From sequence record PQ850608.1: a stretch of DNA of 64,000 nucleotides, one strand, 5' to 3'. This DNA is from Escherichia phage HermannAdler_Bas98. Position numbers and translations under genes: made by a program. The notes beneath the pieces were generated by a model, which was not told the DNA's origin, did no database searches, and was given only the letters and a program-made list of their open reading frames with translations. Below are positions 2,170-57,499 of this stretch, in pieces. Each line of letters begins with the position of its first letter. The first letter of the stretch is position 1.

Positions 2170-2204
2170 ATTCATCGGCAAAGGATTGCCGCGAGTTTTA
2201 TACG

Positions 2205-2480: not shown

Positions 2481-2532
2481 ATAAAGGCGCGGCTATATTG
2501 GTTGTTATACATATTCAAACCATAATTATTGT

Positions 2533-42205: not shown

Positions 42206-43288
42206 ATGGCTAGTTTAAGAGAAGAAGCAAAAATAATCGAAGAGTTTTTGACGGAACTCCAAAGAGGCATTCCAGAAGACGAACGCGTCATGACCGTGTT
42301 TGCGCCTGAAGCGACAGTGCAGACTGACGAGCGCGGCAAGAAGATCAACAGCAGCTTCTGGCCTAAGCCTTGGAAGTTGGGCAAGTCGCTCATGCAGCAC
42401 CAAAACGGCTATGCGTGCATCAGTTCAATGCGTAAGTCTCCCAACCCAAAGACGGGTGAGATGCGATACTGGCGTACAGAGTCGGCCTTTGGTCACGGCA
42501 TGGCGATGATGGTCGACGACATCGGTCACGGTAAAGGGTCCAAAGGCGATTTAGATTTGGAATTCTTTTTTGAGCGACTGAAGCCGACTGTCATCGTCGA
42601 GACTTCACCGAACAACCACCAGCTTTGGTACTTCTTTAAAGAACCGATTGACCATCTTATTCAGTTCAAAGCGTTCCTTGGGTCTTTCGTTAACATGGTA
42701 CTCAAGAAGGGCGGCGACAACACGATTAAAGACGTAACGCGCGTGGGCCGTGTTCCTGGGTGCATCAACAACAAGCGTGTGACTCACGACGGCCCCTATA
42801 AATATGTCGATGAGAACGGCGACCCGTTCCGCTGCCGACTTGTCCATGCAGACTACTCATTGCGCTACACCATCGAAGACATTTGTCAGGCATTTGGCTT
42901 TCACGTCGTCATGCCGCAAAAGCGTGAGATTCAAATTGACGTCGATGAATACAAGTATGATGCTGTTTGGTATAAAATAGCCCAGCAGATTCTATCGCGC
43001 AACAAAATGGGTGAAGGGTCTGATGGCGACGTCATCGAGAACATGTCAGGCAAGTGCCGCATAATCTGTCCTTGGGGTGAAGAACACACCAACGGCGACC
43101 CGTATGGCGCTTACTTTCGCGGCCCTATTCCTGGTGCAGAACATGAGTTTGTGTTCGGTTGCGCCCACGACTGTCACCGGAAAGGGGAAGGCAAGAAAGG
43201 TTGGACTGCTTTTGTTGAAGCAATCGTCATGCCTTATATTGAGAATCAACTTGACATGATAAATCGTCGTGCAGGTGGCATAAAATAG
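42206..43288 (+). CDS. primase-polymerase (AEP-family) protein with C-terminal Cys/His cluster
   Basis: MVDDIGHGKG, SPNNHQLWYFF and TRVGRVPGCINNK blocks resemble prim-pol motifs; C-terminal CPWGEEH...GCAHDCH. Confidence 0.5.
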   Translation: MASLREEAKIIEEFLTELQRGIPEDERVMTVFAPEATVQTDERGKKINSSFWPKPWKLGKSLMQHQNGYACISSMRKSPNPKTGEMRYWRTESAFGHGMAMMVDDIGHGKGSKGDLDLEFFFERLKPTVIVETSPNNHQLWYFFKEPIDHLIQFKAFLGSFVNMVLKKGGDNTIKDVTRVGRVPGCINNKRVTHDGPYKYVDENGDPFRCRLVHADYSLRYTIEDICQAFGFHVVMPQKREIQIDVDEYKYDAVWYKIAQQILSRNKMGEGSDGDVIENMSGKCRIICPWGEEHTNGDPYGAYFRGPIPGAEHEFVFGCAHDCHRKGEGKKGWTAFVEAIVMPYIENQLDMINRRAGGIK

Positions 43289-43346
43289 TTTGCTTTTATT
43301 TTCATAGCAACTATAATCATTTTATGAACTGAAGCAGAGGTGATTC

Positions 43347-43493
43347 ATGCAAAGCGAAGAATTGAACATCGAGGTTGAATGTCTGTTAAAGTCGTTAGAA
43401 CCTAAACCAGCAGAGCTTCCGACCCTTCAAGGAGTCATGGCTCACCATCAAGCGGCTGCGGCCCAACACTACTCTGAATTTGTTAAGGAATAA
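43347..43493 (+). CDS. small protein (48 aa)
   Basis: GAGGTG RBS; short. Confidence 0.35.
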   Translation: MQSEELNIEVECLLKSLEPKPAELPTLQGVMAHHQAAAAQHYSEFVKE

Positions 43494-43495
43494 AA

Positions 43496-43786
43496 ATGAA
43501 CGAACCAAAAATGATGACCGTTGAAGAAGCACAAAATCTTCGTGTTGAAAACGAGCTTAAGCTTGTCAACCAGATTCTTCCCTTGTTTGCAGGCTACGCA
43601 GTGGAGGAAGTTGTTGGTGCAATCCTTAACGTATCCACGCATGTCGCTATGAATCTTCAGGCCGAACGATTCAACACGCTGCTGACTATTAAAAACCTTA
43701 CGGTCAGTGCAACGTTCACCGTTGAGCCAGTCAATTTTGACGAAGCTTCAGCCGCGATTCAACAGCAAAGAGATCAAGAGGTGTAG
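43496..43786 (+). CDS. hypothetical protein
   Basis: ATG 2 nt after upstream stop. Confidence 0.5.
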   Translation: MNEPKMMTVEEAQNLRVENELKLVNQILPLFAGYAVEEVVGAILNVSTHVAMNLQAERFNTLLTIKNLTVSATFTVEPVNFDEASAAIQQQRDQEV

Positions 43787-43787
43787 C

Positions 43788-44051
43788 ATGGGCGCTTTCC
43801 GTAACGAGTTCATCTGGAACGTTACCAGCAATCTCTCGACCTGCCCTAACTGTGCAAGCGATGTTATCAAGGTGCGGCAACATCGCAACGCGGAGGAAGG
43901 TGCCTGGGAAGATGGCGACCTTGTAGAGTGCCAGTGCTGCTCTCATGAAGGAGTTGTTGAGCTTCAAGCTGGTGAAGGTTGCCCACCAGCAGAGCGCACA
44001 GCACGCGTTGAATGGGATGCGACAGACTCCATTGGTGATCCTCAACAGTAA
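43788..44051 (+). CDS. small Cys-rich (zinc-ribbon-like) protein
   Basis: CPNC ... CQCC pairs; ATG 1 nt after upstream TAG. Confidence 0.45.
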   Translation: MGAFRNEFIWNVTSNLSTCPNCASDVIKVRQHRNAEEGAWEDGDLVECQCCSHEGVVELQAGEGCPPAERTARVEWDATDSIGDPQQ

Positions 44052-44069
44052 ATTTAGGTATAGATACTT

Positions 44070-44174
44070 ATGAAAGCCGTAAAGAAATACACATTAATCA
44101 TTTCCCTTGTTATCATCCTGGGGCTATTATATGTATTGGATATGGCATATTATTTGGCAGGGGTGAGTAAATGA
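44070..44174 (+). CDS. small membrane peptide (34 aa)
   Basis: Single hydrophobic helix; stop overlaps next start (ATGA). Confidence 0.3.
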   Translation: MKAVKKYTLIISLVIILGLLYVLDMAYYLAGVSK

Positions 44175-44461
44175 ATATTGTAATTCTTTATGGTGAAAAT
44201 ATCAGCGATGACGACATCGAAGTTGCCGTTGATGTTTACGGTATCGATGAGGTGAAACGTGTTGAAGAAATTAGTGGCGCAAATCTCAATGAGATTGTCA
44301 AAGAAGCTGGCTGTCCTTCGGAAGAGATTCTGGTGGTTACTAACGATGACCTGTCTTCTATGGATCATTTGCGCCGCATCTTCACCGATTGCCAATACCT
44401 TCATGCTGTTCAATCAGTAAACAAATTGAGAAAGGCATACGCTGACCAATTTCCTTGCTGA
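44171..44461 (+). CDS. hypothetical protein
   Basis: 96 aa ORF, GGGGTGAG RBS. Confidence 0.5.
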   Translation: MNIVILYGENISDDDIEVAVDVYGIDEVKRVEEISGANLNEIVKEAGCPSEEILVVTNDDLSSMDHLRRIFTDCQYLHAVQSVNKLRKAYADQFPC

Positions 44462-44510
44462 TAGTTCACCAGTTATATTGCTTTAAATTGAGTTTTACTA
44501 TATTAATATA

Positions 44511-44536
44511 CAACGCCAGATTTCTGGCGTTTATTT
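44511..44536 (+). terminator. rho-independent terminator candidate
   Basis: AACGCCAGA-TT-TCTGGCGTT stem-loop followed by TATTT. Confidence 0.45.
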
Positions 44537-44597
44537 ACCGCACCCTGAAAGGATATATCCATGCAACAATATAACAAAGCCGTATCAGGAGGATTAA

Positions 44598-46268
44598 ATG
44601 TCAATTAATAATGACAATCTTCCAGAGGATACAGGTGATGAATTTGGTGCAATCTTTGACGAAATTCAAGATGCAGGCGTTTCGGAAGAAATGCAGGCAG
44701 CAGAGCAGCAAGGCACCAGAGCTAAAATCAGCCTTCAACACAAAGCCGTTGAAAAAGATTCAGAGCGCATGGAATGCTACGGTGAAGAAGACTTGGTTGA
44801 AAGAGCACGCTTGCTCGCCTCACTTCAGGTAATCAAGTTCCCTCACTACAAGCCTACCAAAGATGACTTCGTTCTACAGGCAGACCGGACGAGTGACATG
44901 AACCGTTATGCGGTTTTCGACGCGTTGTTTGATAAGGGAAGTGGCGTTGTTCCATTCCCTCACAAAGATACTTTTCGTGGGCGCTTAGTCGACCATCGCG
45001 GCGAAACTTTCACCGACCGGACGTTGGAAGTCACAGAGATAGTTGCCGCTGTCGACGCAGCAGGTCTGTCCAACCCAAACTCACGTCAGGTAGCTCAATC
45101 CTATAAGGAATGGGCTATGCGTTATCAGCGTGACGACCTGATGGACTTCTTCTACAAGAAGCTGCCTGAATGGGACGGTACTGCGCGCATTGAGAAATAC
45201 CTTATCGAGCTATTCCGACCGTTCGATACAGAGTTAAACCGACAAATCGGTGTGTATTTTTGGCTATCGCTCTACAACCGACTGACCAACCCTGGCTGTC
45301 AAGCGCCAATCTCCATCGCGCTCATCGGCGGCCAGAACGCAGGGAAGAGTTATTTTAGCAAGCTACTTTGCGAAGCTATTATGAACGACCGCCACGCAAC
45401 ACCGATTCCGTTGAACTTAGCCGCGCAGAACTTCAACCCGTTCTTGCGAGCTATTACGGGTCGCTCAATTATCGCGAACGTCGGCGAGATGACAGGCTTT
45501 AAAAAGGCCGACATCGAAAACATGAAAGCATTCCTGACTAAGACGGAAGATGACCTGGACTTCAAATTTGAAGATACTCAGGTTAAACCACGCCAGTGGA
45601 TTGCTATCATGGACGGCAACGAATACGCAGGCATGCAGCGTGATGACACGGGCAACCGTCGTGTGTATCCTATCTTTGTTGGCCAACTCGCTGACAAGGA
45701 CGGGCAACCGAACTGGTCGAAAGATTTCCAAGCTGACCTTTCCACTTTGAAAGAAGACGTTTGGCAGTTGATGGCTGAGTGCGCTGCATGGATGGAGAAG
45801 CACGGCGAAGCAGGCTATAACGCGTTTGTTGGTGAAACATCTCGCATGCTTACTGAGTTCAGTAAAAACGAAATGGAACGTGCACGCGGCGTTATTCGTG
45901 ATGAGATGGTTGACAACGACCTTGTTGAAGTCGTCATCACCGCGCCTTATGACCGACATCACAGCGGACGCTGGCACATCACCAGTGGTGCTATTGCTAT
46001 GGGATTCAGAGCGAAGTGCGGCAAGTCGCCTTTCTCTCGTACCCTTGCGCCGCACATGTCGAAGCTTGGTTTTGAGCCTGCGACCTATCGCAACCAGCGC
46101 GGTTACTTTACGCCGCTGATTAAGAATGAAGCAGGGGAATACATTTCCGACTTGATGACCATCTTAGCGTATCTTATCCGTGATGAGTCTGACCCTGAAG
46201 ATATTGAATTCTTGAAGAAGGTTATCGAGCGTAAACGTTCTTTGGGAAGAGATAAGGATGAATTCTGA
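44598..46268 (+). CDS. VirE/D5-like P-loop NTPase (putative primase-associated helicase)
   Basis: Walker A GGQNAGKS; downstream acidic Walker B-like region; AGGAGG RBS; partner of prim-pol gene. Confidence 0.55.
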   Translation: MSINNDNLPEDTGDEFGAIFDEIQDAGVSEEMQAAEQQGTRAKISLQHKAVEKDSERMECYGEEDLVERARLLASLQVIKFPHYKPTKDDFVLQADRTSDMNRYAVFDALFDKGSGVVPFPHKDTFRGRLVDHRGETFTDRTLEVTEIVAAVDAAGLSNPNSRQVAQSYKEWAMRYQRDDLMDFFYKKLPEWDGTARIEKYLIELFRPFDTELNRQIGVYFWLSLYNRLTNPGCQAPISIALIGGQNAGKSYFSKLLCEAIMNDRHATPIPLNLAAQNFNPFLRAITGRSIIANVGEMTGFKKADIENMKAFLTKTEDDLDFKFEDTQVKPRQWIAIMDGNEYAGMQRDDTGNRRVYPIFVGQLADKDGQPNWSKDFQADLSTLKEDVWQLMAECAAWMEKHGEAGYNAFVGETSRMLTEFSKNEMERARGVIRDEMVDNDLVEVVITAPYDRHHSGRWHITSGAIAMGFRAKCGKSPFSRTLAPHMSKLGFEPATYRNQRGYFTPLIKNEAGEYISDLMTILAYLIRDESDPEDIEFLKKVIERKRSLGRDKDEF

Positions 46269-46915
46269 TGAATAAAGCAATCAACATCGCTAAATTCTTT
46301 CAACATCTTGGTGAACTGAACAAAGAAAGTGACGTTCACGGCGAAGAAATGAACCGGATGATCTCAACCGTGTTGCGTGGCTTTGGTTATGATAAGGACT
46401 CAATCACTTGCAAGCGTACAAAGCTTGTTGATGAGTCTTATCTTTACTACGTAGAGCTGCGCATCGGGAAAGATGTGATGATCATTGACCCTAAACTGGA
46501 AGGGGCGCACTGTTTTGGCGCTCACCCTCGTGCGAGTGAATTCAAGGGGCGCGGTCGCAACCGAATCCAGAAGCTTGATGACGCAGGCGACTTGAACATT
46601 GCAATGTTCCTTAAAGAGTTCCTTGCGCTACCGAAGGTTGCATCATCCACTGGCCGTGATGACCCTTGCAAGATTGGATTCAGAACTAAAGATTTGCGCA
46701 ATGCGCTACGCAAGAAGGGATTTGTGCCTTCTTATGACAACGTCGCCGCGCTGATGGCTTCAATGGAGGAAGCTGAAGCAATGGATAAAGTGCGCGGCTA
46801 TTTCCTGAATACAGGCTTCACCATGTATGAATGGCACACGAAGGGATTGACTGTCGCCGACTTCATCTATTCATTAGAGCAGAAGTATGTACGCAATATG
46901 CAGGCCACAGGATAA
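46268..46915 (+). CDS. hypothetical protein
   Basis: ATGA overlap with upstream gene. Confidence 0.55.
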   Translation: MNKAINIAKFFQHLGELNKESDVHGEEMNRMISTVLRGFGYDKDSITCKRTKLVDESYLYYVELRIGKDVMIIDPKLEGAHCFGAHPRASEFKGRGRNRIQKLDDAGDLNIAMFLKEFLALPKVASSTGRDDPCKIGFRTKDLRNALRKKGFVPSYDNVAALMASMEEAEAMDKVRGYFLNTGFTMYEWHTKGLTVADFIYSLEQKYVRNMQATG

Positions 46916-46954
46916 TTATCATCAAAATATTTGCTTTTCTGACGAGGTGATATT

Positions 46955-47179
46955 ATGATTAATTTAGACAGGATTGAGTTAGCACTTAGTACCTTAATCA
47001 AATATTACCAGTTTGCTTTTAAGGCTAGTTTGTTTGGCTTGTTCAATCCTCATCAAGCAGCAAAGGCGCGAAGCAATGCCAACCGCCTGCGCTGCACTGG
47101 TATAGTTATCCACGACCGGATATTGACAGAGGGTAGATTCAGCCATGAATACACAAGGGAGAATAACAAAGCAACGTAG
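46955..47179 (+). CDS. hypothetical protein
   Basis: GAGGTGA RBS. Confidence 0.35.
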   Translation: MINLDRIELALSTLIKYYQFAFKASLFGLFNPHQAAKARSNANRLRCTGIVIHDRILTEGRFSHEYTRENNKAT

Positions 47180-47350
47180 GGCTTTACAAGTCCTCATCCA
47201 CTACCTGTCACGCCTTTATCCAACGGCGCACGAGCAGAATCCAGCAACTGGTCATCTGTTTAAGCGCCGTAACCTTTCGCTAAAAACATTCGCTTTAATC
47301 CAACATGACCGCTACCTGGACGGGCGCTATTGCGGCCCGAAGGATTCTCT

Positions 47351-47629
47351 ATGATTACTACATACAAAGTATTCTTCGTCAAGTGCACATCATCTATTGA
47401 TGACCAATTTACTGCTGGCAAGAATTATCCCGTGATTTCTGAGTCAAAGCTAGATATAATCTTGAACGATCATGAAATCTATGAGCCGATGCCAGCGACT
47501 GCGTTTGATGTTATCGGTCACGTTCGGATTAAGACGAATGTTGAAACGATGCATGATCCGTTGTTCAAGAAGCAAATTAAGAATGCCATGCAAGACTTTT
47601 GCGCGGCTATGTTTAAATATTATAAGTGA
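47351..47629 (+). CDS. hypothetical protein
   Basis: AAGGA RBS, ATG 47351. Confidence 0.4.
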   Translation: MITTYKVFFVKCTSSIDDQFTAGKNYPVISESKLDIILNDHEIYEPMPATAFDVIGHVRIKTNVETMHDPLFKKQIKNAMQDFCAAMFKYYK

Positions 47630-47636
47630 GTTGAAG

Positions 47637-47858
47637 ATGAGCAAGAAAACCCTTAAGGCTGGCGACCGTATCCGTTGGGTATCAGGACAGCACATGCGTG
47701 CAGGCACCATCCTTGAGCTGGACGAATACCTTACCGATTCGCGCGGTCGTAATCACTACCGTGTAAGAATCGATACAGTAAAAGAAGATGACAAGTCGCT
47801 GGTTGGTGAAGTCGTCATTGTAACTCCACGTCAAATAAAGGCGGCTTGTGAAGCATGA
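47637..47858 (+). CDS. hypothetical protein
   Basis: 73 aa ORF. Confidence 0.45.
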   Translation: MSKKTLKAGDRIRWVSGQHMRAGTILELDEYLTDSRGRNHYRVRIDTVKEDDKSLVGEVVIVTPRQIKAACEA

Positions 47859-48010
47859 ATAAATATCAATTTAACGATAATAAAATCAGTAAGGCAGACG
47901 CAATCAAGCAGCTTCGCCGCGTACTTGAAGCCAGCGGCCATACGAAAGAGCGCGCACGCGTCCTAGCCAAAGAACATTATAAACGTTTTGTGTCACAAAT
48001 CAGAGGTTAA
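47855..48010 (+). CDS. small protein (51 aa)
   Basis: ATGA overlap with upstream gene. Confidence 0.35.
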   Translation: MNKYQFNDNKISKADAIKQLRRVLEASGHTKERARVLAKEHYKRFVSQIRG

Positions 48011-48012
48011 TT

Positions 48013-48507
48013 ATGATCATCCATCGCCCTTTAATGTTAAACAAAGAAGAGTGTGAAGAAATTTTACACGCATTGAGACGTGCAGAAGCAGATGTTAACC
48101 TTCGTGTAAGGGTAAGAGACTTCATCATGAAGGAGTTTGAAAGTGATGATGTTGACTATGCCATTGATGAATTGCTGAAGCGCAACGTCAAGGGTGCAAC
48201 AAGACCTATTCACCATCAATCACGTTGCGTACAAGTTCCTATTCAAACTTATGTTGATAAAAAGCCGCGCCTTAAGCCTGTTCCGGCTGATAAGATAGAA
48301 GTTGGTGACGTTATTGTTTGCGTATATTACGGCAGTCAGATTTTCAATGCTGTTGTGGTAAGGCGATACAGCATAAACGGTTGCCAATACATGGAAGTGA
48401 CAAACACAAAGAAAGAACCTGGCAGCTTGAACGTGGCTTACGCATTAAGTGAATGCAGCAGTCCTTCTTGCACTCTTTATAAGGTACTCGACCATGGCTC
48501 ATGTTAA
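48013..48507 (+). CDS. hypothetical protein
   Basis: 164 aa ORF. Confidence 0.5.
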   Translation: MIIHRPLMLNKEECEEILHALRRAEADVNLRVRVRDFIMKEFESDDVDYAIDELLKRNVKGATRPIHHQSRCVQVPIQTYVDKKPRLKPVPADKIEVGDVIVCVYYGSQIFNAVVVRRYSINGCQYMEVTNTKKEPGSLNVAYALSECSSPSCTLYKVLDHGSC

Positions 48508-48841
48508 AGACGAAGTGCTTTTTGGCGCAGAGATTAAGAAACGTGTCAGAGAAATGGCAGGAGAAGAAAGAATGAAGCCGTTGCGAAAAGGTTTTGATCA
48601 CATCAATGGCGTATCCGGCACGAAGGAGATGGGCGTGTTGGTAAAAGACATTCGCATTGGCGATGTCATGGTCATCGACCGACAAGCGCGCGTCGTTATC
48701 CAGGTGCAACCGAACGATGATGAAGGTTGTGTTCTATTGAAGCTGAAGAAGCTTTCATCCAGCCCAGCGAAGGCCGTCATCAAGAAGGTATGGCCCGAAG
48801 GATTACGCAAACTCATTCGTCGACCCGTGGAGAATGTTTAA
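48494..48841 (+). CDS. hypothetical protein
   Basis: ATG 48494 overlapping upstream gene by 14 nt. Confidence 0.4.
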   Translation: MAHVKDEVLFGAEIKKRVREMAGEERMKPLRKGFDHINGVSGTKEMGVLVKDIRIGDVMVIDRQARVVIQVQPNDDEGCVLLKLKKLSSSPAKAVIKKVWPEGLRKLIRRPVENV

Positions 48842-49077
48842 TGGAAGATTATATTAACGCGATGTATATGGCATTCTATGTCGTGCAAATTCCCAATGGC
48901 GCGGTATTCTATGGCGAGTATACCTTTGACGTTCAATATGACGTTTCAGAGCGTACAGTGTTAACAAGGGAGCTAATCGCGGACCTTAAGGACGACATCA
49001 AGCGCGTCGCGCGGCAGCAGTTCAATTTAGATGACACCGTAATCGTTCGCATTACCGGAATAACAGAGGTGCAGTGA
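48841..49077 (+). CDS. hypothetical protein
   Basis: ATG overlapping upstream TAA. Confidence 0.45.
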   Translation: MEDYINAMYMAFYVVQIPNGAVFYGEYTFDVQYDVSERTVLTRELIADLKDDIKRVARQQFNLDDTVIVRITGITEVQ

Positions 49078-49406
49078 TGACCCGTGATCAGATACTCGCC
49101 GCGCATGAGCGTGGGTTGATAAAGGAAGTGTGGAAGAAGGCCAATGCCTTTGCTGATTCTTATTACTTCTTAAAGAAGTGCATAAAAGAAAATGCAAGAA
49201 TGGGCAATACAGTATTGACTTTTAATCTTCTTTCTTATGGCGAAAAGCTTAATGCAATATATGCTTGTCGACTAGCCAGCATGAAGTTCGATAGAGGAAA
49301 TGACGGAGAGTTGACCATCTATCGATTCTCCCACAGGACGGGAGATACAAAGATAACAAGGACGCGTGACCAGATAGAGATTGACTTACTCCACTATGCA
49401 AAATGA
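49074..49406 (+). CDS. hypothetical protein
   Basis: ATGA overlap. Confidence 0.5.
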   Translation: MMTRDQILAAHERGLIKEVWKKANAFADSYYFLKKCIKENARMGNTVLTFNLLSYGEKLNAIYACRLASMKFDRGNDGELTIYRFSHRTGDTKITRTRDQIEIDLLHYAK

Positions 49407-49409
49407 ATA

Positions 49410-49491
49410 TCAAAAAGGTGAGCTAAATGCTTGCCTTTTCTTTTATCAATACTTATACTCTTTTCATCAAGACGAACAAGTGAGGTGAATT
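49410..49491 (+). promoter_or_regulatory. repeated promoter cassette copy 1 (conserved 30-mer + sigma70-type promoter)
   Basis: TCAAAAAGGTGAGCTAAATGCTTGCCTTTT identical to 50947-50976; TTGCCT - 17 nt - TATACT; conserved TCATCAAG. Confidence 0.55.
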
Positions 49492-49809
49492 ATGATTTAC
49501 TTAGGAATGGACGAAGATGCGCACAAAGACCTTTCAAGGGTGCCAAACGTTAAGTTAGACACAGCCGTACACATCAAGCCTTGGCCAATCGTCCACCCAA
49601 ACGTAGTTGTACCAGTCGCGCCTGGCACGCGTTACGTGGCCATTGATGACGACGGAGTCATTCACTGTTATTCGGAAAAACCAAAGTACATAGAGCAATA
49701 TCACGGTTGGTTCTTGGATGAGCGTGCAATGGCGCGTTACTGCGGCGAAGTCGGTCTGGAAGGCTGGGGATTCAAGGCTAGTGAATCGTGTGTCGAGGTG
49801 CAATTATGA
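49492..49809 (+). CDS. hypothetical protein
   Basis: GAGGTGA RBS. Confidence 0.5.
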   Translation: MIYLGMDEDAHKDLSRVPNVKLDTAVHIKPWPIVHPNVVVPVAPGTRYVAIDDDGVIHCYSEKPKYIEQYHGWFLDERAMARYCGEVGLEGWGFKASESCVEVQL

Positions 49810-50024
49810 ATGCCGCGCTGGGTAAGCTGTCTTTCAACAAGCGTAATGAGCTGAGAATGGTGTCGCGCTTTCAACAAACATATTCATCACTAATAAAGAT
49901 TACAAATAAGGCCGACTCTCGTGTTTGCTCTAAAGAAGAATGGGAAGAATTGAACGAGCGTCGTAAACAATTACAACATGCCGCATTCAAGCTGCAGCAA
50001 TATGCTATGGAGTATGCAAAATGA
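49806..50024 (+). CDS. hypothetical protein
   Basis: ATGA overlap. Confidence 0.45.
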   Translation: MNAALGKLSFNKRNELRMVSRFQQTYSSLIKITNKADSRVCSKEEWEELNERRKQLQHAAFKLQQYAMEYAK

Positions 50025-50305
50025 AGATGCAAAGATGTCCCCATTGCTTGTCCACGATGCAGCTTACTGCTGAAGAATATTTACATCACGTTAACGTTTG
50101 TGAGGCTAATCCTGAAAACTCGACGCGTTACTATTATCATTATCACGCAGAAGCGGAAGATGGATCAGGCGCAACAGGCATCGTCACCACTAAAGAAATG
50201 GTGATAACTAAAAAGGCATATGAAAGCTTGCTGGAGACGATTAAAGAAGTTTCTGGCAAAGAAATCACCTGTATTAAATCTTTATCTTTCTTGCACGAGG
50301 TATAA
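50021..50305 (+). CDS. small protein with N-terminal Cys/His zinc-finger-like module (paralogue A)
   Basis: MKMQRCPHCLSTMQL..EEYLHHVNVCEANPEN. Confidence 0.5.
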   Translation: MKMQRCPHCLSTMQLTAEEYLHHVNVCEANPENSTRYYYHYHAEAEDGSGATGIVTTKEMVITKKAYESLLETIKEVSGKEITCIKSLSFLHEV

Positions 50306-50306
50306 A

Positions 50307-50690
50307 ATGAGAATGAAGCGTTGCCCTTACTGCCACGATGTGATGCATCTTCCACACGAAGAGTTTGTGCAGCACATGACTAACTGTGATAAGAATCCTA
50401 ATAGCGAAAGCCAACTTGAAGAAAGAATGTTTCTTGTGTCATTCAAAGCTTCTGCTTATGAAGTGCAACGGGCTTACGGCGCACCAAGTACGATTTACTG
50501 TCCAACAACATTGAGAAGCGACATCGACTCAATTCAGCTTGCGGCCTGGATTAACGTTAAGGAAGGCATCACGCCGCACTTTATTGCGCGCATCCAATCT
50601 CAGATTCTACAAATGAAGCGCGAATACAACCGTGACATCACTGAAGTGAAGGTGCTGTCTATCACGCCGATGAATAAGGAGTTGCCGTGA
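50307..50690 (+). CDS. small protein with N-terminal Cys/His zinc-finger-like module (paralogue B)
   Basis: MRMKRCPYCHDVMHL..EEFVQHMTNCDKNPNS; same module as 50021-50305 with different C-terminus. Confidence 0.5.
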   Translation: MRMKRCPYCHDVMHLPHEEFVQHMTNCDKNPNSESQLEERMFLVSFKASAYEVQRAYGAPSTIYCPTTLRSDIDSIQLAAWINVKEGITPHFIARIQSQILQMKREYNRDITEVKVLSITPMNKELP

Positions 50691-50947
50691 ACAAGGGTCC
50701 GATGACTAAGTTAGCCGTTGCCGCGCGGAAGCTTCGACAAGCCGTTAATGGGTCGCGGCCCGTGGCGTTAACACTCGACGATGCAAAGGCACTGGTAGAG
50801 CTACTCGACGAGCACAACCGACGCAAGAATCTGGAGAACACATTACGCTGGCGCGTTACTCCGAAAGGGCGGGAGAGCGAAAAGAAAGCTTACTTGCGGC
50901 GCAAACTAAGGTCGGTCGGCCTTCACGAAGAGGCGAAGAATATTTAA
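50687..50947 (+). CDS. hypothetical basic protein
   Basis: AAGGAG RBS before GTG 50687. Confidence 0.45.
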   Translation: MNKGPMTKLAVAARKLRQAVNGSRPVALTLDDAKALVELLDEHNRRKNLENTLRWRVTPKGRESEKKAYLRRKLRSVGLHEEAKNI

Positions 50948-51019
50948 TTCAAAAAGGTGAGCTAAATGCTTGCCTTTTTATTTGCCTGTATTATACTTAG
51001 TTCATCAAGCAAAGGAGAA
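50946..51019 (+). promoter_or_regulatory. repeated promoter cassette copy 2
   Basis: Same 30-mer as 49411-49440; TTGCCT - 16 nt - TATACT. Confidence 0.55.
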
Positions 51020-51328
51020 ATGATTATGAGTTACGACGAAAGGTTTGGCAGAAGCGGATTATTTCATGACGCTGTACACAAAGACAGCAAAGATGTTGTC
51101 TGCGCATTCAAGGTTGATTCTTACGGTACGCTGAAACCATTTAAGGTCGGCGAAACATACAAGCTGTTTCACGGATGGTTGACGCGTCGCAACAACTTGC
51201 CTGACATGGAAGTCTGGTGGATAGAATACAAGGGTCAGGCTCATCGTTGCAAGGTTGTAGAGGTGCGCGGCGTGGAATACTATCAATCTGTTATCAGCGG
51301 CTTTGTTTTTAAAGAGGGTGAGCTATGA
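51020..51328 (+). CDS. hypothetical protein
   Basis: AAGGAG RBS. Confidence 0.5.
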   Translation: MIMSYDERFGRSGLFHDAVHKDSKDVVCAFKVDSYGTLKPFKVGETYKLFHGWLTRRNNLPDMEVWWIEYKGQAHRCKVVEVRGVEYYQSVISGFVFKEGEL

Positions 51329-51510
51329 GTACCGAAGTCCACAACGCATCAGCCTTGGTCAGCTTTTACCGTAACAAAGGCGTGTCACTCGTTAAAACGC
51401 CGCAAGGCATGCTGTTCTTTGGCACGCGCTTCCTTAAGGCTTCGGAGCGTGAAACGCTGTCCAAGTTCGACCAGAAAACATTACACGCAGTTTGGAGAAG
51501 ACAACCATGA
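51325..51510 (+). CDS. hypothetical protein
   Basis: ATGA overlap. Confidence 0.4.
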   Translation: MSTEVHNASALVSFYRNKGVSLVKTPQGMLFFGTRFLKASERETLSKFDQKTLHAVWRRQP

Positions 51511-51743
51511 CATCCAACCTTAAGGCCCGTTTATTATTCATCAAGCCGCATGTGCCGTATAAGATTAGTAAGCGCACCTGGCTTAACATTTACAACCGCA
51601 GCGGCGACCGTTGTTTGTACAAGGCGAAGCGGCGCAAGAAGGTATATTTAAAGGCTGTGATGTCGCAGCCAGTCGATGCATTCATCGTCGGCGAAAATGA
51701 ATTATCAATCGGCTATCAAATTGAACTCGGAGTAAAGAAATGA
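51507..51743 (+). CDS. hypothetical basic protein
   Basis: ATGA overlap. Confidence 0.45.
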   Translation: MTSNLKARLLFIKPHVPYKISKRTWLNIYNRSGDRCLYKAKRRKKVYLKAVMSQPVDAFIVGENELSIGYQIELGVKK

Positions 51744-52243
51744 AAATCGAACAACTCGAAGCAGTATTGGAAATGGCTGTTAAAGCAGGCGCAATCAAAA
51801 GCTGGCATCGCGAGAAGTCGGATGACGCCGCGCACTTTTGTCGCAACTTCTATATCGTTGGCAACCTTAATGACCACTACACCATCGAGTGGTATACTAA
51901 TATGATGACGCTTAAGTCGCGCACCATGGAGCTTTGGTGCAATGACATTTGCTTATCCAACACTCATCCATCCTACGACGTGGCATTGGCATTCTATTAC
52001 GGAAGTCATCAACCAGTAGCCCACATTGGTGAGAAGCACGAACACCTGAAGGCGGGACCAGAAGATTCAATGGAAGGTTGGATTGAATGGTCTGGCGGCA
52101 AGAATCCGGTGCCTGGTAAAAAGGTCATGTTGATGTGGAGGAATGGCGCAAAGTCATCATACGCTTTCAATTCAAAAGGATACATATGGACTCACGACGG
52201 AAGCACCCATGACATCATTGCTTATCGCGTCGTGGAGGAATAA
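51740..52243 (+). CDS. hypothetical protein sharing a C-terminal module with 53125-53550
   Basis: C-terminal W..GG.NPVPGK.V......G..S...W.......I.AYRVV.E shared with 53125-53550. Confidence 0.55.
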   Translation: MKIEQLEAVLEMAVKAGAIKSWHREKSDDAAHFCRNFYIVGNLNDHYTIEWYTNMMTLKSRTMELWCNDICLSNTHPSYDVALAFYYGSHQPVAHIGEKHEHLKAGPEDSMEGWIEWSGGKNPVPGKKVMLMWRNGAKSSYAFNSKGYIWTHDGSTHDIIAYRVVEE

Positions 52244-52584
52244 TGGAAGAGCAAGAAGGCCGTGAGCTAACGTTCGATGAACAGATGGCCGAACTTCAGC
52301 GCACATCGCCGCTGCGCGGTAAGGTTGTTGACATCGAGGCAAGCGAATCCAACCTCACCCAGTGGCGGCTCATGTGCACCAGCGCAGGCAAAGAGTTGTC
52401 AAGCTTCAAAGTCGGTCAGTCTTATTTGCTTTATGAGGCAAAAGGACTTATTATTGATGGAAGGCAAATCGTCTTCACTGTAGTCAGCGGAATGCGTTGG
52501 TTCGTGAAGCGTGATGTCGAGGGTCGTGACATGTTTGTCGCAGGCTTTCCAGAAACAAGATTCCAATTGGAGAAGGTTAAATGA
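52243..52584 (+). CDS. hypothetical protein
   Basis: ATG overlapping upstream TAA. Confidence 0.5.
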   Translation: MEEQEGRELTFDEQMAELQRTSPLRGKVVDIEASESNLTQWRLMCTSAGKELSSFKVGQSYLLYEAKGLIIDGRQIVFTVVSGMRWFVKRDVEGRDMFVAGFPETRFQLEKVK

Positions 52585-52913
52585 AATTGAAATGGTATGT
52601 GGACCCTGAGCCGACAGGCTCATACAGGTCATTCCAACGTCGCGGCTGGCCGATTTGTTACAGCGGCAATCCCGATAAAGAAGACTGCGAGGTGCTTGCC
52701 GCGATAGTAAGTCTTAATCATGACGGCTATGAAGGCCACTACGCGAGAGCAACCAACCTTCGTCTCAAGGTGCGCATCCATTTCAAGGTCGCAGGCGAGG
52801 ACCGCACCGGACTCTCCAAGGAAGAGTTCAGCAGCATTGCCGAAGCAAAGGCATGGCTCAAGGCGTTCTACAAGAACAATCCTAAATTTTATCCAACTAA
52901 GGGTGCATTATGA
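52581..52913 (+). CDS. hypothetical protein
   Basis: ATGA overlap. Confidence 0.5.
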   Translation: MKLKWYVDPEPTGSYRSFQRRGWPICYSGNPDKEDCEVLAAIVSLNHDGYEGHYARATNLRLKVRIHFKVAGEDRTGLSKEEFSSIAEAKAWLKAFYKNNPKFYPTKGAL

Positions 52914-53128
52914 CCGATAATCAATACGCAGTCGGGCAACGTGACATCGAGCAACTCGACGAGGGCGGCTATTATACGCGCCACATCTATGCCATGACTC
53001 ATGAAGGACTTTACAGCAAGTCGGACATCGCCGCTGAACTGGCCCATCGTGACTTGCAAATTGACCTTCTCAAGATAGAAATTCAAAACTTACGCAACAC
53101 CCTGTTAAACACCTGGAGCTTAAAATGA
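52910..53128 (+). CDS. hypothetical protein
   Basis: ATGA overlap. Confidence 0.45.
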   Translation: MTDNQYAVGQRDIEQLDEGGYYTRHIYAMTHEGLYSKSDIAAELAHRDLQIDLLKIEIQNLRNTLLNTWSLK

Positions 53129-53550
53129 TACAGCGTTACGACCTGACATATGACGTGGCATCAGACGATTTCGCCGTCACTCCCGTTCCAGAAAGTCATG
53201 AAGGACGTTTTGTTGCATATGAGGACTATGAATCACTACTCAAGCTTAATGAGTCGCTAACAAAAGAGATTGAGCAATACCGCGAGCGCATCAAAGCCGC
53301 TGAAGATGTTATCAAGCTTTTTAGCGAGGCTGTTGAGAAATACAAGGAGCGCAACGTGCCGATTAAGGAGGAAGCGTGGACCGTGTGGTTTGGTGGCGTG
53401 AATCCGGTGCCTGGGAAGATGGTTGAGTTTGAATTACTCAACGGTTATAAATCAAAAGGTGCTGTTCCTTCGGATAGTTTGACATGGGATAAAGTCACAA
53501 GCCCGACTGGTGCAAAGATTGTTGCTTATCGGGTCGTTAAGGAGGGGTGA
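53125..53550 (+). CDS. hypothetical protein sharing a C-terminal module with 51740-52243
   Basis: Coiled-coil N-terminus; same C-terminal NPVPGK...AYRVV module. Confidence 0.55.
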   Translation: MIQRYDLTYDVASDDFAVTPVPESHEGRFVAYEDYESLLKLNESLTKEIEQYRERIKAAEDVIKLFSEAVEKYKERNVPIKEEAWTVWFGGVNPVPGKMVEFELLNGYKSKGAVPSDSLTWDKVTSPTGAKIVAYRVVKEG

Positions 53551-53999
53551 TGGGTAACAAGCTTATCGCCGCTGGTTGGGCCATACCGAAGTGGGCTCAT
53601 CGTGCGCACTACTTTGATGAAGGAGAAGTGCAAAGCCTTTGCGGTCGCGCAACATACTTTGGTGATGAGCGCGTCAGCGGCGATTACATCGACTCGCTTT
53701 TAGGCAAAGGTGATTGCAAGAAATGTCAGGATATATTAAGAGATATTCTAACGCAAAAAGGACTGCTTGAGCTTGATGAGTCGGAGGAAGTAATAGAGCT
53801 TAAGCTTGAAGCCAATCACCTTATTAATATGTTCAAGAATTATTACTCAACGAATATGCGCTCAAAGATGCGTGAGGAAGTAATAAAAGAGGTGCTCACT
53901 TACAATCCGTTAAGGATGAATAAAACTAAACTGAAGAAGTTTAATGCAATAGTAAGAAAGGAATTTAGACGGCTTGGAGTGAAGAATTTTATATTTTAA
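53547..53999 (+). CDS. hypothetical protein
   Basis: Last gene of + strand operon; followed by terminator. Confidence 0.5.
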   Translation: MMGNKLIAAGWAIPKWAHRAHYFDEGEVQSLCGRATYFGDERVSGDYIDSLLGKGDCKKCQDILRDILTQKGLLELDESEEVIELKLEANHLINMFKNYYSTNMRSKMREEVIKEVLTYNPLRMNKTKLKKFNAIVRKEFRRLGVKNFIF

Positions 54000-54016
54000 T
54001 TATGATTAATGTTAAG

Positions 54017-54037
54017 AGGGCCGATTGGCCCTTTTTA
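54017..54037 (+). terminator. rho-independent terminator
   Basis: GGGCC-GATT-GGCCC hairpin followed by TTTTT; then TTTGCCT resembling cassette -35. Confidence 0.55.
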
Positions 54038-54529
54038 TTTGCCTGTGTAATGGGAGGCTTTTGTGGTTATTTACGATTCAAGGCTGTAATTTAAGAGAGC
54101 GAAAATATTATAATAATTTATCAAGATTATTGCATATTGTGGCAATCAACGTTTATACGTATTTATGACAGTTTAATCCACTAAATAATACGGATAGAAC
54201 AGTGAGGAAAATACAGCGGTGTATTTTAGTGTAAATATTGAATCAAAAATAAATAATTATGGTGCTATTATATACGCAGATTGTTTGTAATTTATAGGAT
54301 ATTTTATCGTGGAGTATTGGCTAACGGTGCGTTAGCCGTGGGTCTTGGTGCTTGTGGTGTTGATGCTCAGAATTTTAATAATGTTTTTAGTTTTAGTAAT
54401 CGTAGTCAATGATGATACGTATAAGAAAATGAGAGTCACCCCTTCACAGGATATTGTACCGTGGCCCTGTGGTGCGCCGCGCCTGGGATTGCTGGTATAC
54501 ACTGGTGCTATTTTGCCGCGAAGGCAGTC

Positions 54530-54790
54530 ATTCATACGTATCATGACGTATCATTGGGCTATTGATTTATAAGGAAAAATACGCTGATACGGATGATACG
54601 GGTGCAAACATAATATATATAGAATTCCAGAAAATTAATTAACTCCATTTTGAATTAATTTAAATTAATTTTTTTCTACATCCTCATACTTATACTAAAC
54701 TTATATTCATACGTATCATCCGTAAGATATAAGTAAAAACAAGGACTTGCGGCAATACGGATGATACGTCATGATACGCTTCGACCAGCC
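54530..54790. repeat. iteron / AT-rich module B (homologous to 2205-2480)
   Basis: CATACGTATCATGACGTATCAT, GATACGGATGATACG, AT-rich core with GAATTC and AATTAATTTAAATTAATTTTTTT, then CATACGTATCATCCGTA and AATACGGATGATACGTCATGATACG. Confidence 0.7.
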
Positions 54791-54943
54791 AGCAGCGGCT
54801 AAGTCATTGATTTGCATAGCAAGCGGCGAAAGGGATGGATTTCTTTTATACGTATCAAACAGTACACCACGCACCACGGTCCGCAATCCTATTTGCAATA
54901 TGATTTGTGTACGTTTATAGCCATAATGAACATCAATCTGCAC

Positions 54944-55909: not shown

Positions 55910-56536
55910 TTAGATAATCTGGAAGGTGTAGGACTTGTTGCCGAACTCGAAGTTCAAGCGTCCAGCTTCTTTAAGCTTCATGCGGAAGCGAATGTGCTTG
56001 CTATCCGGTAATCCCAGCGCGGCGAAGGCTACGCGGACCGATTTGAACTCGCCTACACCCTCGACCATAACGCCGTTACGGGTGAGACGCTTTTGCGCCA
56101 CTTCCTTATTATCCCAACTTTTTGCAATACCTTCGCTATTCGAACGGCGATGGGAAGGAGTTCCATTTTGCACTACGCAATTTGCACTATCGTTTAAGCC
56201 GCTCTTAACGAAGGCTTCATACTCTTCATCGCTCATCGCGTCGAGTTCTTCCTGGGTCGGCTCAGCCTTTTTAACGACCGCACGCGCCTTATGCGTTTTT
56301 ACATCACTGGACACTTCCTCACGCGGCTTCGCGTCGGGAATGGGCGATTCGTTGGACGGCTCATCGAGCGCGTTTAAGGACTCGATTAACGCGATTACGC
56401 GAGTCTCGGCGGTCCGGCGGTCCGCAAATTTCTTAATCGGCTTCGAACCGGAATTTGCATTATAAAATGCAACGAGGTCGGCGGTCTTAGTTGCGATAAC
56501 GTCGCCGCTAGTAGAAAAGCGATTTAAGCTAACCAT
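55910..56536 (-). CDS. hypothetical protein (candidate DNA-binding protein of the island)
   Basis: 208 aa; RBS context AGGAGTTTATTATGG identical to the next gene; two motif copies inside coding sequence. Confidence 0.5.
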   Translation of the reverse strand: MVSLNRFSTSGDVIATKTADLVAFYNANSGSKPIKKFADRRTAETRVIALIESLNALDEPSNESPIPDAKPREEVSSDVKTHKARAVVKKAEPTQEELDAMSDEEYEAFVKSGLNDSANCVVQNGTPSHRRSNSEGIAKSWDNKEVAQKRLTRNGVMVEGVGEFKSVRVAFAALGLPDSKHIRFRMKLKEAGRLNFEFGNKSYTFQII

Positions 56537-56616
56537 AATAAACTCCTATTTGTTAGGGCGCTAGGCGCGAAAGAATTTTATTAAAGCGCCGCGCACGACG
56601 CTCTAAAAATCCTCTC

Positions 56617-56931
56617 TTACTCTTCGTCGTCTTCGATTAATTCGAGGGCGAAGGCGTAAGCTTTGCTATCGTAATTAACTAAAACGGCGAGTTCGAACTC
56701 GTTAATAAACGCCGTTTTACCGCATAAATTTAATTCCGCATCGACTTCGAAGAATCCGTTTTCGTCGCGCTCTAAGCGAGAAGCAGCGAGTTGCTCGATT
56801 ACCGTCGCGTCGTTAATTTCTTCGCCTAAGCGAACGCCGGAGAATTTCGCGAGAATTTCGCCGTAAGTAAGCGTAACGCCCTGGACTTCGGCGGCGGCGT
56901 TTTCGAGGGTAAAGCGGGTAACGATAGCCAT
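56617..56931 (-). CDS. small very acidic protein (104 aa)
   Basis: 22 Asp/Glu vs 7 Lys/Arg; AGGAGTTTATTATGG start context; C-ending codon bias distinct from neighbouring early genes. Confidence 0.6.
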   Translation of the reverse strand: MAIVTRFTLENAAAEVQGVTLTYGEILAKFSGVRLGEEINDATVIEQLAASRLERDENGFFEVDAELNLCGKTAFINEFELAVLVNYDSKAYAFALELIEDDEE

Positions 56932-56999
56932 AATAAACTCCTAGTTGGGAGAGGCGTTAACGACCTATTCGTTAACTCATCCCGTCCCGATATGAGTAC

Positions 57000-57027
57000 A
57001 TTATAATATAGTGTAGAAAAAAGTAAA
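57000..57027 (-). promoter_or_regulatory. promoter cassette copy (minus strand) driving 56617-56931
   Basis: Minus strand reads GTGCTTTACT - 16 nt - TATAAT ... ATATCGGGACGGG, matching the two plus-strand cassettes. Confidence 0.5.
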
Positions 57028-57071: not shown

Positions 57072-57099
57072 TTTACTTCTTCGTACACTCGCGTATACT
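57072..57099 (+). promoter_or_regulatory. promoter cassette copy driving 57156-57458
   Basis: CTTTACTTCTTCGTACACT ... TATACT (16 nt spacer) ... TTTATATCGAGACGGG. Confidence 0.5.
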
Positions 57100-57470: not shown

Positions 57471-57499
57471 TTTACTTCTTCGTACACTAAGACTATAAT
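57471..57499 (+). promoter_or_regulatory. promoter cassette copy driving 57567-57857
   Basis: GTGCTTTACTTCTTCGTACACT ... TATAAT (17 nt spacer) ... TTTATATCGAGAGGGG. Confidence 0.55.

What the first reader, a model, noticed from the sequence alone, without database searches (positions are those of the whole stretch)
49410..51019. Repeated promoter / stem-loop cassettes in the early region
An identical 30-mer TCAAAAAGGTGAGCTAAATGCTTGCCTTTT followed by a sigma70-like promoter occurs before genes at 49492 and 51020. The -35 TTGCCT recurs at the capsid-operon promoter (2533) and after the terminator at 54017-54037. Repeated promoter-plus-stem-loop units of this kind have been described in T4-type phages as sites of modular gene shuffling. 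The genes between them include domain-swapped paralogues.
Basis: partly seen in the sequence, partly recalled or inferred. Interest (0 to 1): 0.45.

Follow-up and report, generated by a model that had tools for sequence, protein, structure and literature searches.

The report
Twin terminator-promoter cassettes in a coliphage
Two near-identical 60-nt units, each a transcription stop hairpin fused to a host-type promoter, split a run of small phage genes into separate transcription units; this is a known kind of element, new only for this phage genus, with modest evidence that it also serves as a recombination point.

Summary
The exact 30-mer occurs at 49410-49439 and 50949-50978 and nowhere else in the window. 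Each copy is an 11-bp RNA hairpin plus U-run, read here as an intrinsic terminator. Its 3' arm carries a -35 TTGCCT, followed 16-17 nt later by TATACT and a shared TCATCAAG box.

The window is a Wifcevirus (E. coli myovirus, ECML-117/WFC group). All 28 GenBank genomes carry exactly two copies. In 55 copies collected, the stem, -35 and -10 never vary, while flanking genes diverge to 72-78%.

About 16 similar sigma70-like sites lie in other intergenic gaps, and six directly follow a hairpin, so this layout is the phage's ordinary punctuation.

The anatomy matches the PeSL cassettes of T4-type phages, but the multi-copy family criterion fails. Shuffling evidence:
- indels whose junctions duplicate cassette parts;
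- four unrelated genes found behind cassette 2;
- one 943-bp contig with a single hybrid cassette lacking the 1.5-kb module.

However, almost every gene junction in this region is a breakpoint.

The hairpins are already annotated as putative terminators in the WFC record. No transcript data exist. Verdict: a new member of a known kind, of modest interest.

The parts
49413..49439 (+). Cassette 1 hairpin. The 5' arm is 49413-49423 (AAAAGGTGAGC), the loop 49424-49428 (TAAAT) and the 3' arm 49429-49439 (GCTTGCCTTTT). It is followed by the U-rich tail CTTTTAT, to 49446.
   Evidence: RNA fold gives -13.7 kcal/mol (z = -3.9) on the + strand against -10.1 on the - strand, because the stem holds two G.U pairs. 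It is listed as terminator-like. The WFC record annotates the same hairpin as a putative terminator. The stem is invariant in all copies collected.
49431..49459 (+). Cassette 1 promoter: -35 TTGCCT (49431-49436, inside the 3' arm of the hairpin), a 17-nt spacer, and -10 TATACT (49454-49459).
   Evidence: The -10 is invariant in 55 copies, while spacer and discriminator positions vary.
49464..49471 (+). Shared TCATCAAG box. The predicted transcription start is at about A49466.
   Evidence: The box is identical in both cassettes. It is invariant in 53 of 55 copies, and the two exceptions differ only at the last base. The start position is inferred from its distance to the -10.
49482..49494 (+). 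Shine-Dalgarno GAGGTGA and the ATG of the first module gene.
49492..50947 (+). Five-gene module between the cassettes: 49492-49809, 49806-50024, 50021-50305, 50307-50690, 50687-50947. All five genes are of unknown function. The third and fourth are the paralogues with the shared Cys/His N-terminus.
   Evidence: ORFs. No informative Pfam or PHROG hit. Paralogy. The third gene is absent from 6 of 11 relatives. The whole module is absent from L024.
50952..50978 (+). Cassette 2 hairpin, with the same sequence as cassette 1, followed by the tail TATTTGCC.
   Evidence: RNA fold gives -14.7 kcal/mol, z = -4.5. It is annotated as a putative terminator in WFC. Across relatives only the loop varies: TAAAT, TATAT, TAAGT.
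50970..50997 (+). Cassette 2 promoter: -35 TTGCCT (50970-50975), a 16-nt spacer, and -10 TATACT (50992-50997).
   Evidence: A second TTGCCT in the spacer (50980-50985) varies freely among relatives (TTACCT, TTGTCT, TTGACT, TTGGCT), so it is not the functional hexamer.
51002..51028 (+). Cassette 2 TCATCAAG box (predicted start about A51004), the leader with SD AAGGAG (51012-51017), and the ATG at 51026 (an in-frame ATG also lies at 51020).
   Evidence: In Bas101 this leader is duplicated on both sides of an inserted gene.
54014..54044 (+). Terminator at the end of the gene run. Its stem is unrelated (AAGAGGGCC/GGCCCTTTT), but its tail TTTTTATTTGCCTGT equals that of cassette 2. There is no -10.
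   Evidence: RNA fold gives -14.1 kcal/mol. Sequence. The tail is not conserved in relatives.

Best explanation
Each copy is a composite regulatory unit on the + strand.

Reading of the parts:
- The hairpin AAAAGGUGAGC-UAAAU-GCUUGCCUUUU plus U-run forms in RNA made from the upstream genes and stops host RNA polymerase, probably only partly (intrinsic termination).
- The DNA of the 3' arm doubles as the -35 (TTGCCT) of a sigma70-type promoter with -10 TATACT.
- That promoter restarts transcription at about A49466 and A51004, into a leader with a Shine-Dalgarno sequence and the next gene.

Effect on the gene run. The two units cut the tightly packed rightward run (42206-53999) into successive transcription units: genes up to 49406, the five-gene module 49492-50947, and the variable genes 51026-53999. 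The run is closed by the terminator at 54014-54040.

Origin. The two copies come from an old duplication. The spacer has diverged, while the hairpin, -35, -10 and start box are held by selection.

Side effect. As the only long conserved non-coding stretches among fast-diverging small genes, the copies also serve as points of homologous exchange. Alleles and whole genes are swapped at their edges, and at least once the module between them was lost by cassette-by-cassette recombination.

Shown: sequence, fold, strand asymmetry, position, conservation, resemblance to other sites in the genome, and recombinant junctions.
Inferred: termination, promoter activity, start sites and timing.
For: 1. The exact repeat is far beyond chance.
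2. The hairpin is stable on the + strand only to full extent: -13.7 and -14.7 kcal/mol against -10.1 on the - strand. It is followed by a U-run.
3. The cassettes occupy the only two sizeable intergenic gaps (85 and 79 nt) between 46955 and 53999, where genes otherwise abut or overlap.
4. All 28 Wifcevirus records have exactly two copies.
5. In 55 copies from GenBank, IMG/VR and metagenomes, both stem arms, the -35 and the -10 are invariant. Changes fall in the loop, the A-run length, the spacer, the discriminator and the leader.
6. The cassettes are 92-100% identical to relatives, while adjacent genes drop to 72-78%.
7. The motif TT[GT]NNN-16/17-TATA[AC]T gives 21 hits against 6.9 in shuffles. 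Nearly all are intergenic and correctly oriented, including the start of this gene run at 42149 (TTGACT-16-TATACT) and the capsid operon at 2533.
8. Six of these sites directly follow a hairpin: 24996-, 39454-, C1, C2, 60195-, 63844-.
9. The distantly related Pbunavirus 14-1 transcribes mainly from sigma70-like promoters that also work in E. coli (PMC10914365).
10. Recombination. All four combinations of upstream and downstream alleles exist across cassette 1. Indel junctions duplicate cassette parts. The hybrid cassette in L024 lacks the module.
Against: - No transcript 5' or 3' ends are available for any Wifcevirus.
- The hexamers match the consensus at only 9 of 12 positions, a score that random sequence also reaches often (43 found against 33.6 expected).
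- The stem has only 4 G-C pairs, so termination may be weak. Cassette 2 failed the simple terminator scan because its tail has fewer T.
- The stem never varies, so there is no compensatory change to prove pairing.
- Invariance of the -35 cannot be separated from invariance of the stem.
- The module-deletion variant rests on one 943-bp contig in a Xanthomonas draft assembly. About 45 other contexts all keep both cassettes.
Confidence: 0.72

Rival explanations
1. The cassettes are PeSL-type mobile regulatory cassettes. On this reading their main significance is to drive modular gene shuffling, with recombination between copies excising or inserting the interposed genes as mini-circles, as proposed for T4-type phages.
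For: - The architecture is the same as defined in PMC4122927.
- Two direct copies flanking a five-gene module is the product expected from integration of a circle carrying one cassette.
- L024 has one hybrid cassette (C1 flank and spacer, C2 leader and downstream gene) and no module.
- The extra gene in WFC and Bas100 is flanked by a 21-nt repeat that includes the 5' arm of the hairpin. The extra gene in Bas101 is flanked by a 24-nt repeat of the C2 leader. RCIP0319 has a 1.4-kb insert at the 5' edge of C2.
- L037 has a different gene in front of C1.
- At least four unrelated gene families follow C2.
Against: - There are only two copies per genome in 28 genomes, not a dispersed family.
- About 22 of 25 breakpoint clusters in the region lie at junctions without any cassette. 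Allele switching is as frequent at cassette-free junctions.
- No hybrid or reciprocal junction was found in IMG/VR.
- No circle has been observed.
- Only a single deletion example is known.
- The syntenic cluster of Pantoea phage Kyle has no cassettes.
Confidence: 0.18
2. The hairpin is only a terminator or a 3'-end stabiliser. On this reading the downstream TATACT and TCATCAAG are conserved for another reason (an RNA processing site, or simple shared ancestry), and downstream genes are expressed by read-through.
For: The hairpin and U-run are the strongest single feature and the only part that earlier annotators marked. The match to the promoter consensus is moderate.
Against: - TATACT is invariant in 55 copies while neighbouring spacer and discriminator bases vary, and the spacers of the two copies have diverged at about half their positions.
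- The spacing to the -35 is kept at 16-17 nt.
- The same -10 appears in about 9 other intergenic promoter-like sites.
Confidence: 0.07
3. The repeat is a DNA binding site (operator) for a phage or host protein, or it encodes a small peptide from the ATG in the loop (SD-like AAGGTGAG, then ATG at 49427 or 50966).
For: The repeat is a near-palindrome. The 5' arm looks like a Shine-Dalgarno sequence and is used as one by the gene inserted in WFC and Bas100. The loop ATG opens an 18-codon frame in cassette 1, and in cassette 2 a frame that runs into the next gene.
Against: - The palindrome is imperfect as DNA, with two positions that pair only as G.U in + strand RNA.
- The two peptides differ after four residues.
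- In WFC a 1-nt deletion changes the frame in cassette 2.
- The SD would be sequestered in the hairpin, and it lies upstream of the predicted start of the downstream transcript.
Confidence: 0.03

Closest known systems
PeSL (promoter-early stem-loop) cassettes of T4-type phages RB49/phi1, T4/PST and KVP40/nt-1 (Arbiol et al. 2010, PMC2839356; Comeau et al. 2014, PMC4122927)
   Same: - A stem-loop that acts as a terminator sits immediately upstream of or overlapping a sigma70-like promoter, followed by an SD and a start codon.
- The A-run/G-rich stem/T-run form resembles the nt-1 type (A3-4G3-loop-C3T3-4), and the -35 fits TTGYVH.
- The unit sits at the border of a hyperplastic run of small ORFan genes.
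- Indels and gene replacements occur at its edges.
- One hybrid-cassette deletion product exists.
- A 'half' element (stem-loop plus -35-like tail, no -10) lies at 54014-54044.
   Different: - There are two sequence-related copies per genome, not a dispersed family.
- The host phage is a Wifcevirus (68 kb, related to Pbunavirus), not a T4-type phage.
- Most breakpoints in the region lie at junctions without a cassette.
- No mini-circles are known.
- 'Early' timing is unknown, and the same promoter type precedes the capsid operon.
Ordinary intrinsic terminator followed by a sigma70 promoter (operon punctuation in phages that rely on host RNA polymerase, such as Pbunavirus 14-1; PMC10914365)
   Same: A hairpin plus U-run at a gene end, with a host-type promoter before the next gene. 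Several other sites in this genome have the same layout with unrelated hairpins.
   Different: Here two units are near-identical over about 60 nt, with the -35 embedded in the terminator stem, and they are conserved across the whole genus.
Putative terminators annotated in GenBank MK373777 (vB_EcoM_WFC) and MK373776 (WFH), predicted with ARNold (Korf et al. 2019, PMC6563267)
   Same: These are the same two hairpins, each marked 'putative transcriptional terminator, -10.10'.
   Different: The annotation does not note that the two are identical, that a promoter is fused to them, or that they border variable genes.

Membership tests
PeSL cassettes (T4-type phages) | A composite unit: stem-loop just upstream of a sigma70-like promoter, ending in an SD and a start codon | tested here: met
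   Sequence and fold, compared with the definition in PMC4122927.
PeSL cassettes (T4-type phages) | Many related copies per genome, clustered in hyperplastic regions | tested here: not met
   There are two copies in the window even with 3 mismatches allowed, and exactly two places in each of 28 genomes. Other composite units in the genome have unrelated hairpins.
PeSL cassettes (T4-type phages) | Copies lie next to insertions, deletions and replacements between close relatives | tested here: inconclusive
   Indels occur at both cassettes and four gene families follow C2. But only 3 of about 25 breakpoint clusters are at cassettes, and nearly every gene junction is a breakpoint.
PeSL cassettes (T4-type phages) | Recombination between two copies removes or inserts the DNA between them (mini-circles) | tested here: inconclusive
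   One hybrid cassette without the module was found, in a 943-bp contig. None was found in IMG/VR or in about 45 other contexts. Circles cannot be tested here.
PeSL cassettes (T4-type phages) | Host genome is a T4-type myovirus | tested here: not met
   The window is a Wifcevirus.
Intrinsic (Rho-independent) terminator | A stable G+C-containing hairpin followed by a U-run, on the coding strand just after a stop codon | tested here: met
   Fold energies are -13.7 and -14.7 kcal/mol with z = -3.9 and -4.5. With the A/U base pairs opened, the tails read UUUUCUUUU and UUUUUAUUU. The hairpins begin 7 nt and 5 nt after the stop codons.
Intrinsic (Rho-independent) terminator | Transcripts end there in vivo or in vitro | not testable with these tools
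   No Wifcevirus transcript data were found.
Sigma70-type promoter | -35 and -10 hexamers 16-18 nt apart, upstream of a gene | tested here: met
   TTGCCT-17-TATACT and TTGCCT-16-TATACT each match 9 of 12 positions. They belong to a genome-wide set of about 16 intergenic sites.
Sigma70-type promoter | Hexamers conserved more than the spacer among relatives | tested here: met
   The -10 and -35 are invariant in 55 copies. The spacer, discriminator and leader vary.
Sigma70-type promoter | A mapped transcription start | not testable with these tools
   No data. The predicted starts are A49466 and A51004.
Known RNA families (Rfam) | A match above the gathering score | tested here: not met
   The only match is a sub-threshold one to MicX (21 bits against 75 needed).

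The most novel reading that the evidence does not exclude
The five-gene, 1.5-kb module between the two cassettes is an excisable and insertable unit. Recombination between the twin cassettes would loop it out, as the single hybrid cassette in contig NZ_JPLE01000312.1 suggests, and could reinsert it or other cassette-bearing genes. This would extend PeSL-type modular shuffling from T4-type phages to an unrelated genus, where the -35 sits inside the terminator stem.
Probability: 0.25. Interest if true: 0.45.

Novelty: new member of a known kind. Interest (0 to 1): 0.3.

Why it matters
Wifcevirus phages are used against E. coli O157 and are reported to replicate unusually fast, yet nothing is known about how they are transcribed. 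This analysis offers three things:
- A testable transcription map for the rightward gene run, built from the twin cassettes and the roughly 16 related promoter-like sites.
- A compact natural part that combines a terminator and a promoter in 60 nt.
- A second phage lineage in which the idea that regulatory cassettes double as recombination points can be checked.

The element itself is of a kind already described, and the hairpins were already annotated as putative terminators.

Tried and rejected
- **More copies of the 30-mer.** None in the window with 3 mismatches allowed. Outside Wifcevirus, the only hits are weak 38-nt matches in jumbo phages and one identical hairpin in a Clostridia MAG with no other homology. 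I took the latter as an independent terminator.
- **Rfam.** Nothing above threshold.
- **Small ORF from the loop ATG.** Rejected. The two peptides differ, the frame is broken in WFC, and the SD lies inside the stem.
- **Second TTGCCT in cassette 2 as the -35.** Rejected. It sits 6 nt from the -10 and varies freely among relatives.
- **TTGCCT after the 54014-54040 terminator as a promoter.** Rejected. There is no -10 and it is not conserved.
- **Paralogy of the genes following the two cassettes.** None is apparent, and all genes are ORFans.
- **Analogous cassettes in the nearest other genus (Kylevirus).** The syntenic cluster has no gaps.
- **More hybrid or reciprocal cassette junctions.** None in IMG/VR. 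Ten context look-ups of neighbouring genes showed the standard two-cassette layout or unrelated contexts.
- **Covariation in the stem.** Impossible to assess because the stem never varies.
- **Three calls failed on wrong reading-frame coordinates and were repeated**.

Full report
**What is there**

The 30-mer TCAAAAAGGTGAGCTAAATGCTTGCCTTTT is exact at 49410-49439 and 50949-50978 on the + strand. With up to 3 mismatches these remain the only two matches in 64 kb, and none occur in shuffles. The similarity extends to 35 nt.

After a diverged spacer the similarity resumes at TATACT, then 4 nt, then TCATCAAG.

As + strand RNA the repeat folds into an 11-12-bp hairpin, AAAAGGUGAGC / UAAAU / GCUUGCCUUUU. 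Fold energies are -13.7 and -14.7 kcal/mol, with z-scores of -3.9 and -4.5. The stem holds two G.U pairs, so the - strand folds less well (-10.1). This points to an RNA made from the + strand.

A U-rich tail follows each hairpin. The hexamer TTGCCT in the 3' arm lies 17 nt (cassette 1) or 16 nt (cassette 2) before TATACT.

The two units fill the only sizeable intergenic gaps (85 and 79 nt) in a run of + strand genes that otherwise abut or overlap from 46955 to 53999.

**Where the window comes from**

The window is a Wifcevirus, an E. coli myovirus of the ECML-117/WFC group with a genome of about 68 kb.

A primase-gene query finds exactly 28 records of this genus in the phage collection. A 91-nt cassette query finds exactly two places in each of the same 28 records.

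IMG/VR, metagenome and genome scans for the hairpin return only Wifcevirus-like DNA, with one exception. That exception is a Clostridia MAG carrying the same stem in an unrelated terminator-promoter setting.

In the WFC record both hairpins are already annotated as 'putative transcriptional terminator, -10.10'. That prediction was made with ARNold (PMC6563267). No paper I could find reports promoters or transcript ends for this genus.

**Conservation**

I collected 55 cassette copies from GenBank relatives, IMG/VR and metagenomic contigs.
- Both stem arms, the -35 and the -10 TATACT never vary.
- TCATCAAG varies twice, only at its last base.
- Changes are confined to the loop (TAAAT, TATAT, TAAGT, TGAAT), the length of the A-run (4-6), the spacer, the discriminator and the leader.
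- A second TTGCCT in the cassette 2 spacer varies freely, so the hexamer inside the stem is the likely -35.

The cassettes are 92-100% identical to relatives, whereas the genes on either side fall to 72-78% in many of them. This is the pattern expected of a functional hairpin and promoter. Because the stem never changes, there is no compensatory substitution to prove the pairing.

**Context in the genome**

The motif TT[GT]NNN-16/17 nt-TATA[AC]T gives 21 hits against 6.9 in shuffles. Nearly all lie in intergenic gaps with the right orientation. They include:
- the start of this rightward gene run at 42149 (TTGACT-16-TATACT);
- the site at 2533 (TTGCCT-17-TATAAT), before the operon with the major capsid gene.

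TTGCCT with a TATAMT -10 occurs 4 times against 0.07 expected.

Six of about 16 sites directly follow a terminator-like hairpin: 24996-, 39454-, the two cassettes, 60195- and 63844-. The unit at 60213-60168 also has its -35 overlapping the stem, and it shares the leader AACAAGTGAGGTGAAT with cassette 1.

So terminator-then-promoter is this phage's ordinary way of punctuating operons. The two cassettes are special only in being near-identical.

The distant relative Pbunavirus 14-1 is transcribed mostly from sigma70-like promoters that also work in E. coli (PMC10914365). This fits reliance on host polymerase.

Because the same promoter type precedes the capsid operon, calling this an 'early' region is unsupported.

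**Is it a shuffling site?**

The anatomy matches the published definition of PeSLs: a stem-loop just upstream of a sigma70-like promoter, then an SD and a start codon (PMC4122927).

Evidence for exchange at the cassettes:
1. All four combinations of the two upstream and two downstream alleles exist across cassette 1.
2. WFC and Bas100 carry an extra 195-nt gene in front of cassette 1. It is flanked by a 21-nt direct repeat, AAATGAATATCAAAAAGGTGA, whose hairpin arm serves as the new gene's SD. One metagenomic phage has that gene instead of the usual upstream gene.
3. Bas101 has an extra gene behind cassette 2, flanked by a 24-nt repeat of the leader. RCIP0319 has 1.4 kb inserted at the 5' edge of cassette 2.
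4. Cassette 2 is followed by at least four unrelated gene families in different phages, while cassette 1 always precedes the same gene.
5. A 943-bp contig filed under Xanthomonas pisi DSM 18956 is plainly Wifcevirus DNA. It has one hybrid cassette: the cassette 1 flank, the 30-mer and the cassette 1 spacer, then TATACT-CAGT-TCATCAAG, then the cassette 2 leader and an ECML-117-type downstream gene. The whole 1.5-kb module is missing. The switch lies where the two cassettes share only 7-9 nt, so a k-mer assembly error is unlikely.

Evidence against a special role:
- There are only two copies per genome.
- About 25 breakpoint clusters lie between 47.8 and 54.6 kb, at nearly every gene junction, and only 3 touch a cassette.
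- Allele switching is as common at junctions without a cassette.
- No further hybrid or reciprocal junction turned up in IMG/VR or in about 45 other contexts.
- The syntenic cluster in Pantoea phage Kyle has no such gaps.

**Other points**

All genes around the cassettes are of unknown function.

The 'domain-swapped paralogues' are two adjacent genes sharing a Cys/His N-terminus (E = 9e-11). Six of 11 relatives have only one of them, and the junction lies in the shared N-terminal coding sequence.

An ATG in the hairpin loop, preceded by the SD-like arm, opens short frames. These differ between the cassettes and are frame-shifted in WFC, so I reject a coding role.

Rfam gives nothing.

**Verdict**

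The best reading (about 0.7) is a duplicated composite intrinsic terminator and sigma70 promoter. It divides the rightward gene run into transcription units and, being conserved, doubles as a point of homologous exchange.

It works like a PeSL and has the same architecture. It fails the multi-copy and T4-type criteria, so I file it as a new member of a known kind rather than as a PeSL family member.

Termination, promoter activity, start sites and timing are all inferred. The experiments that would settle them are listed separately.

Noticed in passing
window 2200-2500 and 54400-54800: Two long non-coding regions each carry arrays of the 9-bp unit GATACGGAT / ATCCGTATC in inverted orientation around an AT-rich core. 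They look like iterons or operator arrays. The second array coincides with the physical genome end of phage WFC.
   Followed up: partly
window 54647 to about 58430: Position 1 of the WFC record maps to window 54647, and its terminal repeat is 3784 bp (WFC 68689-72472). This stretch of the window therefore corresponds to the direct terminal repeat. The cassette-bearing gene run ends about 650 bp before it (PMC6563267).
   Followed up: partly
window 57000-57027 (-), 57072-57099 (+), 57471-57499 (+): This is a second repeated promoter family inside the terminal-repeat region. TTTACTTCTTCGTACACT is identical at 57072 and 57471, and a related copy lies on the other strand. These may be the true immediate-early promoters.
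   Followed up: no
window 60213-60140 (-): Another terminator-promoter unit lies here: the hairpin AAGGCGCT-GAAA-AGCGCCTT overlapping a -35 TTTACT, then 16 nt, then TATACT. Its leader AACAAGTGAGGTGAAT is identical to that of cassette 1.
   Followed up: partly
L025 3412-3437 (CANQCL010000002.1, Clostridia MAG from rabbit gut): The same hairpin stem (AAAGGTGAGCT-GTT-TGCTTGCCTTTT) occurs in a bacterial contig, followed by TTGACT-17-TATAAT. There is no other similarity to the window. This is convergence or chance among terminators.
   Followed up: partly
L040-L045 (about 44.6-kb phage contigs), protein P0019: Some relatives carry a 101-aa ORFan behind cassette 2. It has 70% identical homologues in unrelated phages of about 44.6 kb that carry HTH, AAA_25 and lysozyme genes, which indicates gene exchange between phage types.
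   Followed up: no
window 51740-52243 and 53125-53550: Two genes in the variable region share a C-terminal domain. The DNA is 76% identical over 54 nt (repeat finder D10), and both proteins hit phrog_11995.
   Followed up: no
window 56516-56552 and 56911-56947 (-): Two minus-strand genes start with the same 37-nt ribosome-binding region and N-terminal codons (81% identity). They are probably paralogues (D17).
   Followed up: no
window 50021-50690: This is a tandem pair of small genes with a shared CxxC...H...C N-terminus. Six of 11 relatives have a single gene, with the junction at 50024-50047/50304 inside the shared coding sequence, as expected from unequal recombination between the paralogues.
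   Followed up: partly
window 58526-58490 (-) and 54029-54045 (+): Two terminators with unrelated stems are followed by tails that resemble the TTTTTATTTGCCTGT tail of cassette 2. The tail at 54029-54045 is identical to it, and the one at 58526-58490 is a close variant (TTTATTTTGCCTGC). The meaning is unknown, and the motif is not conserved in relatives at 54029-54045.
   Followed up: partly
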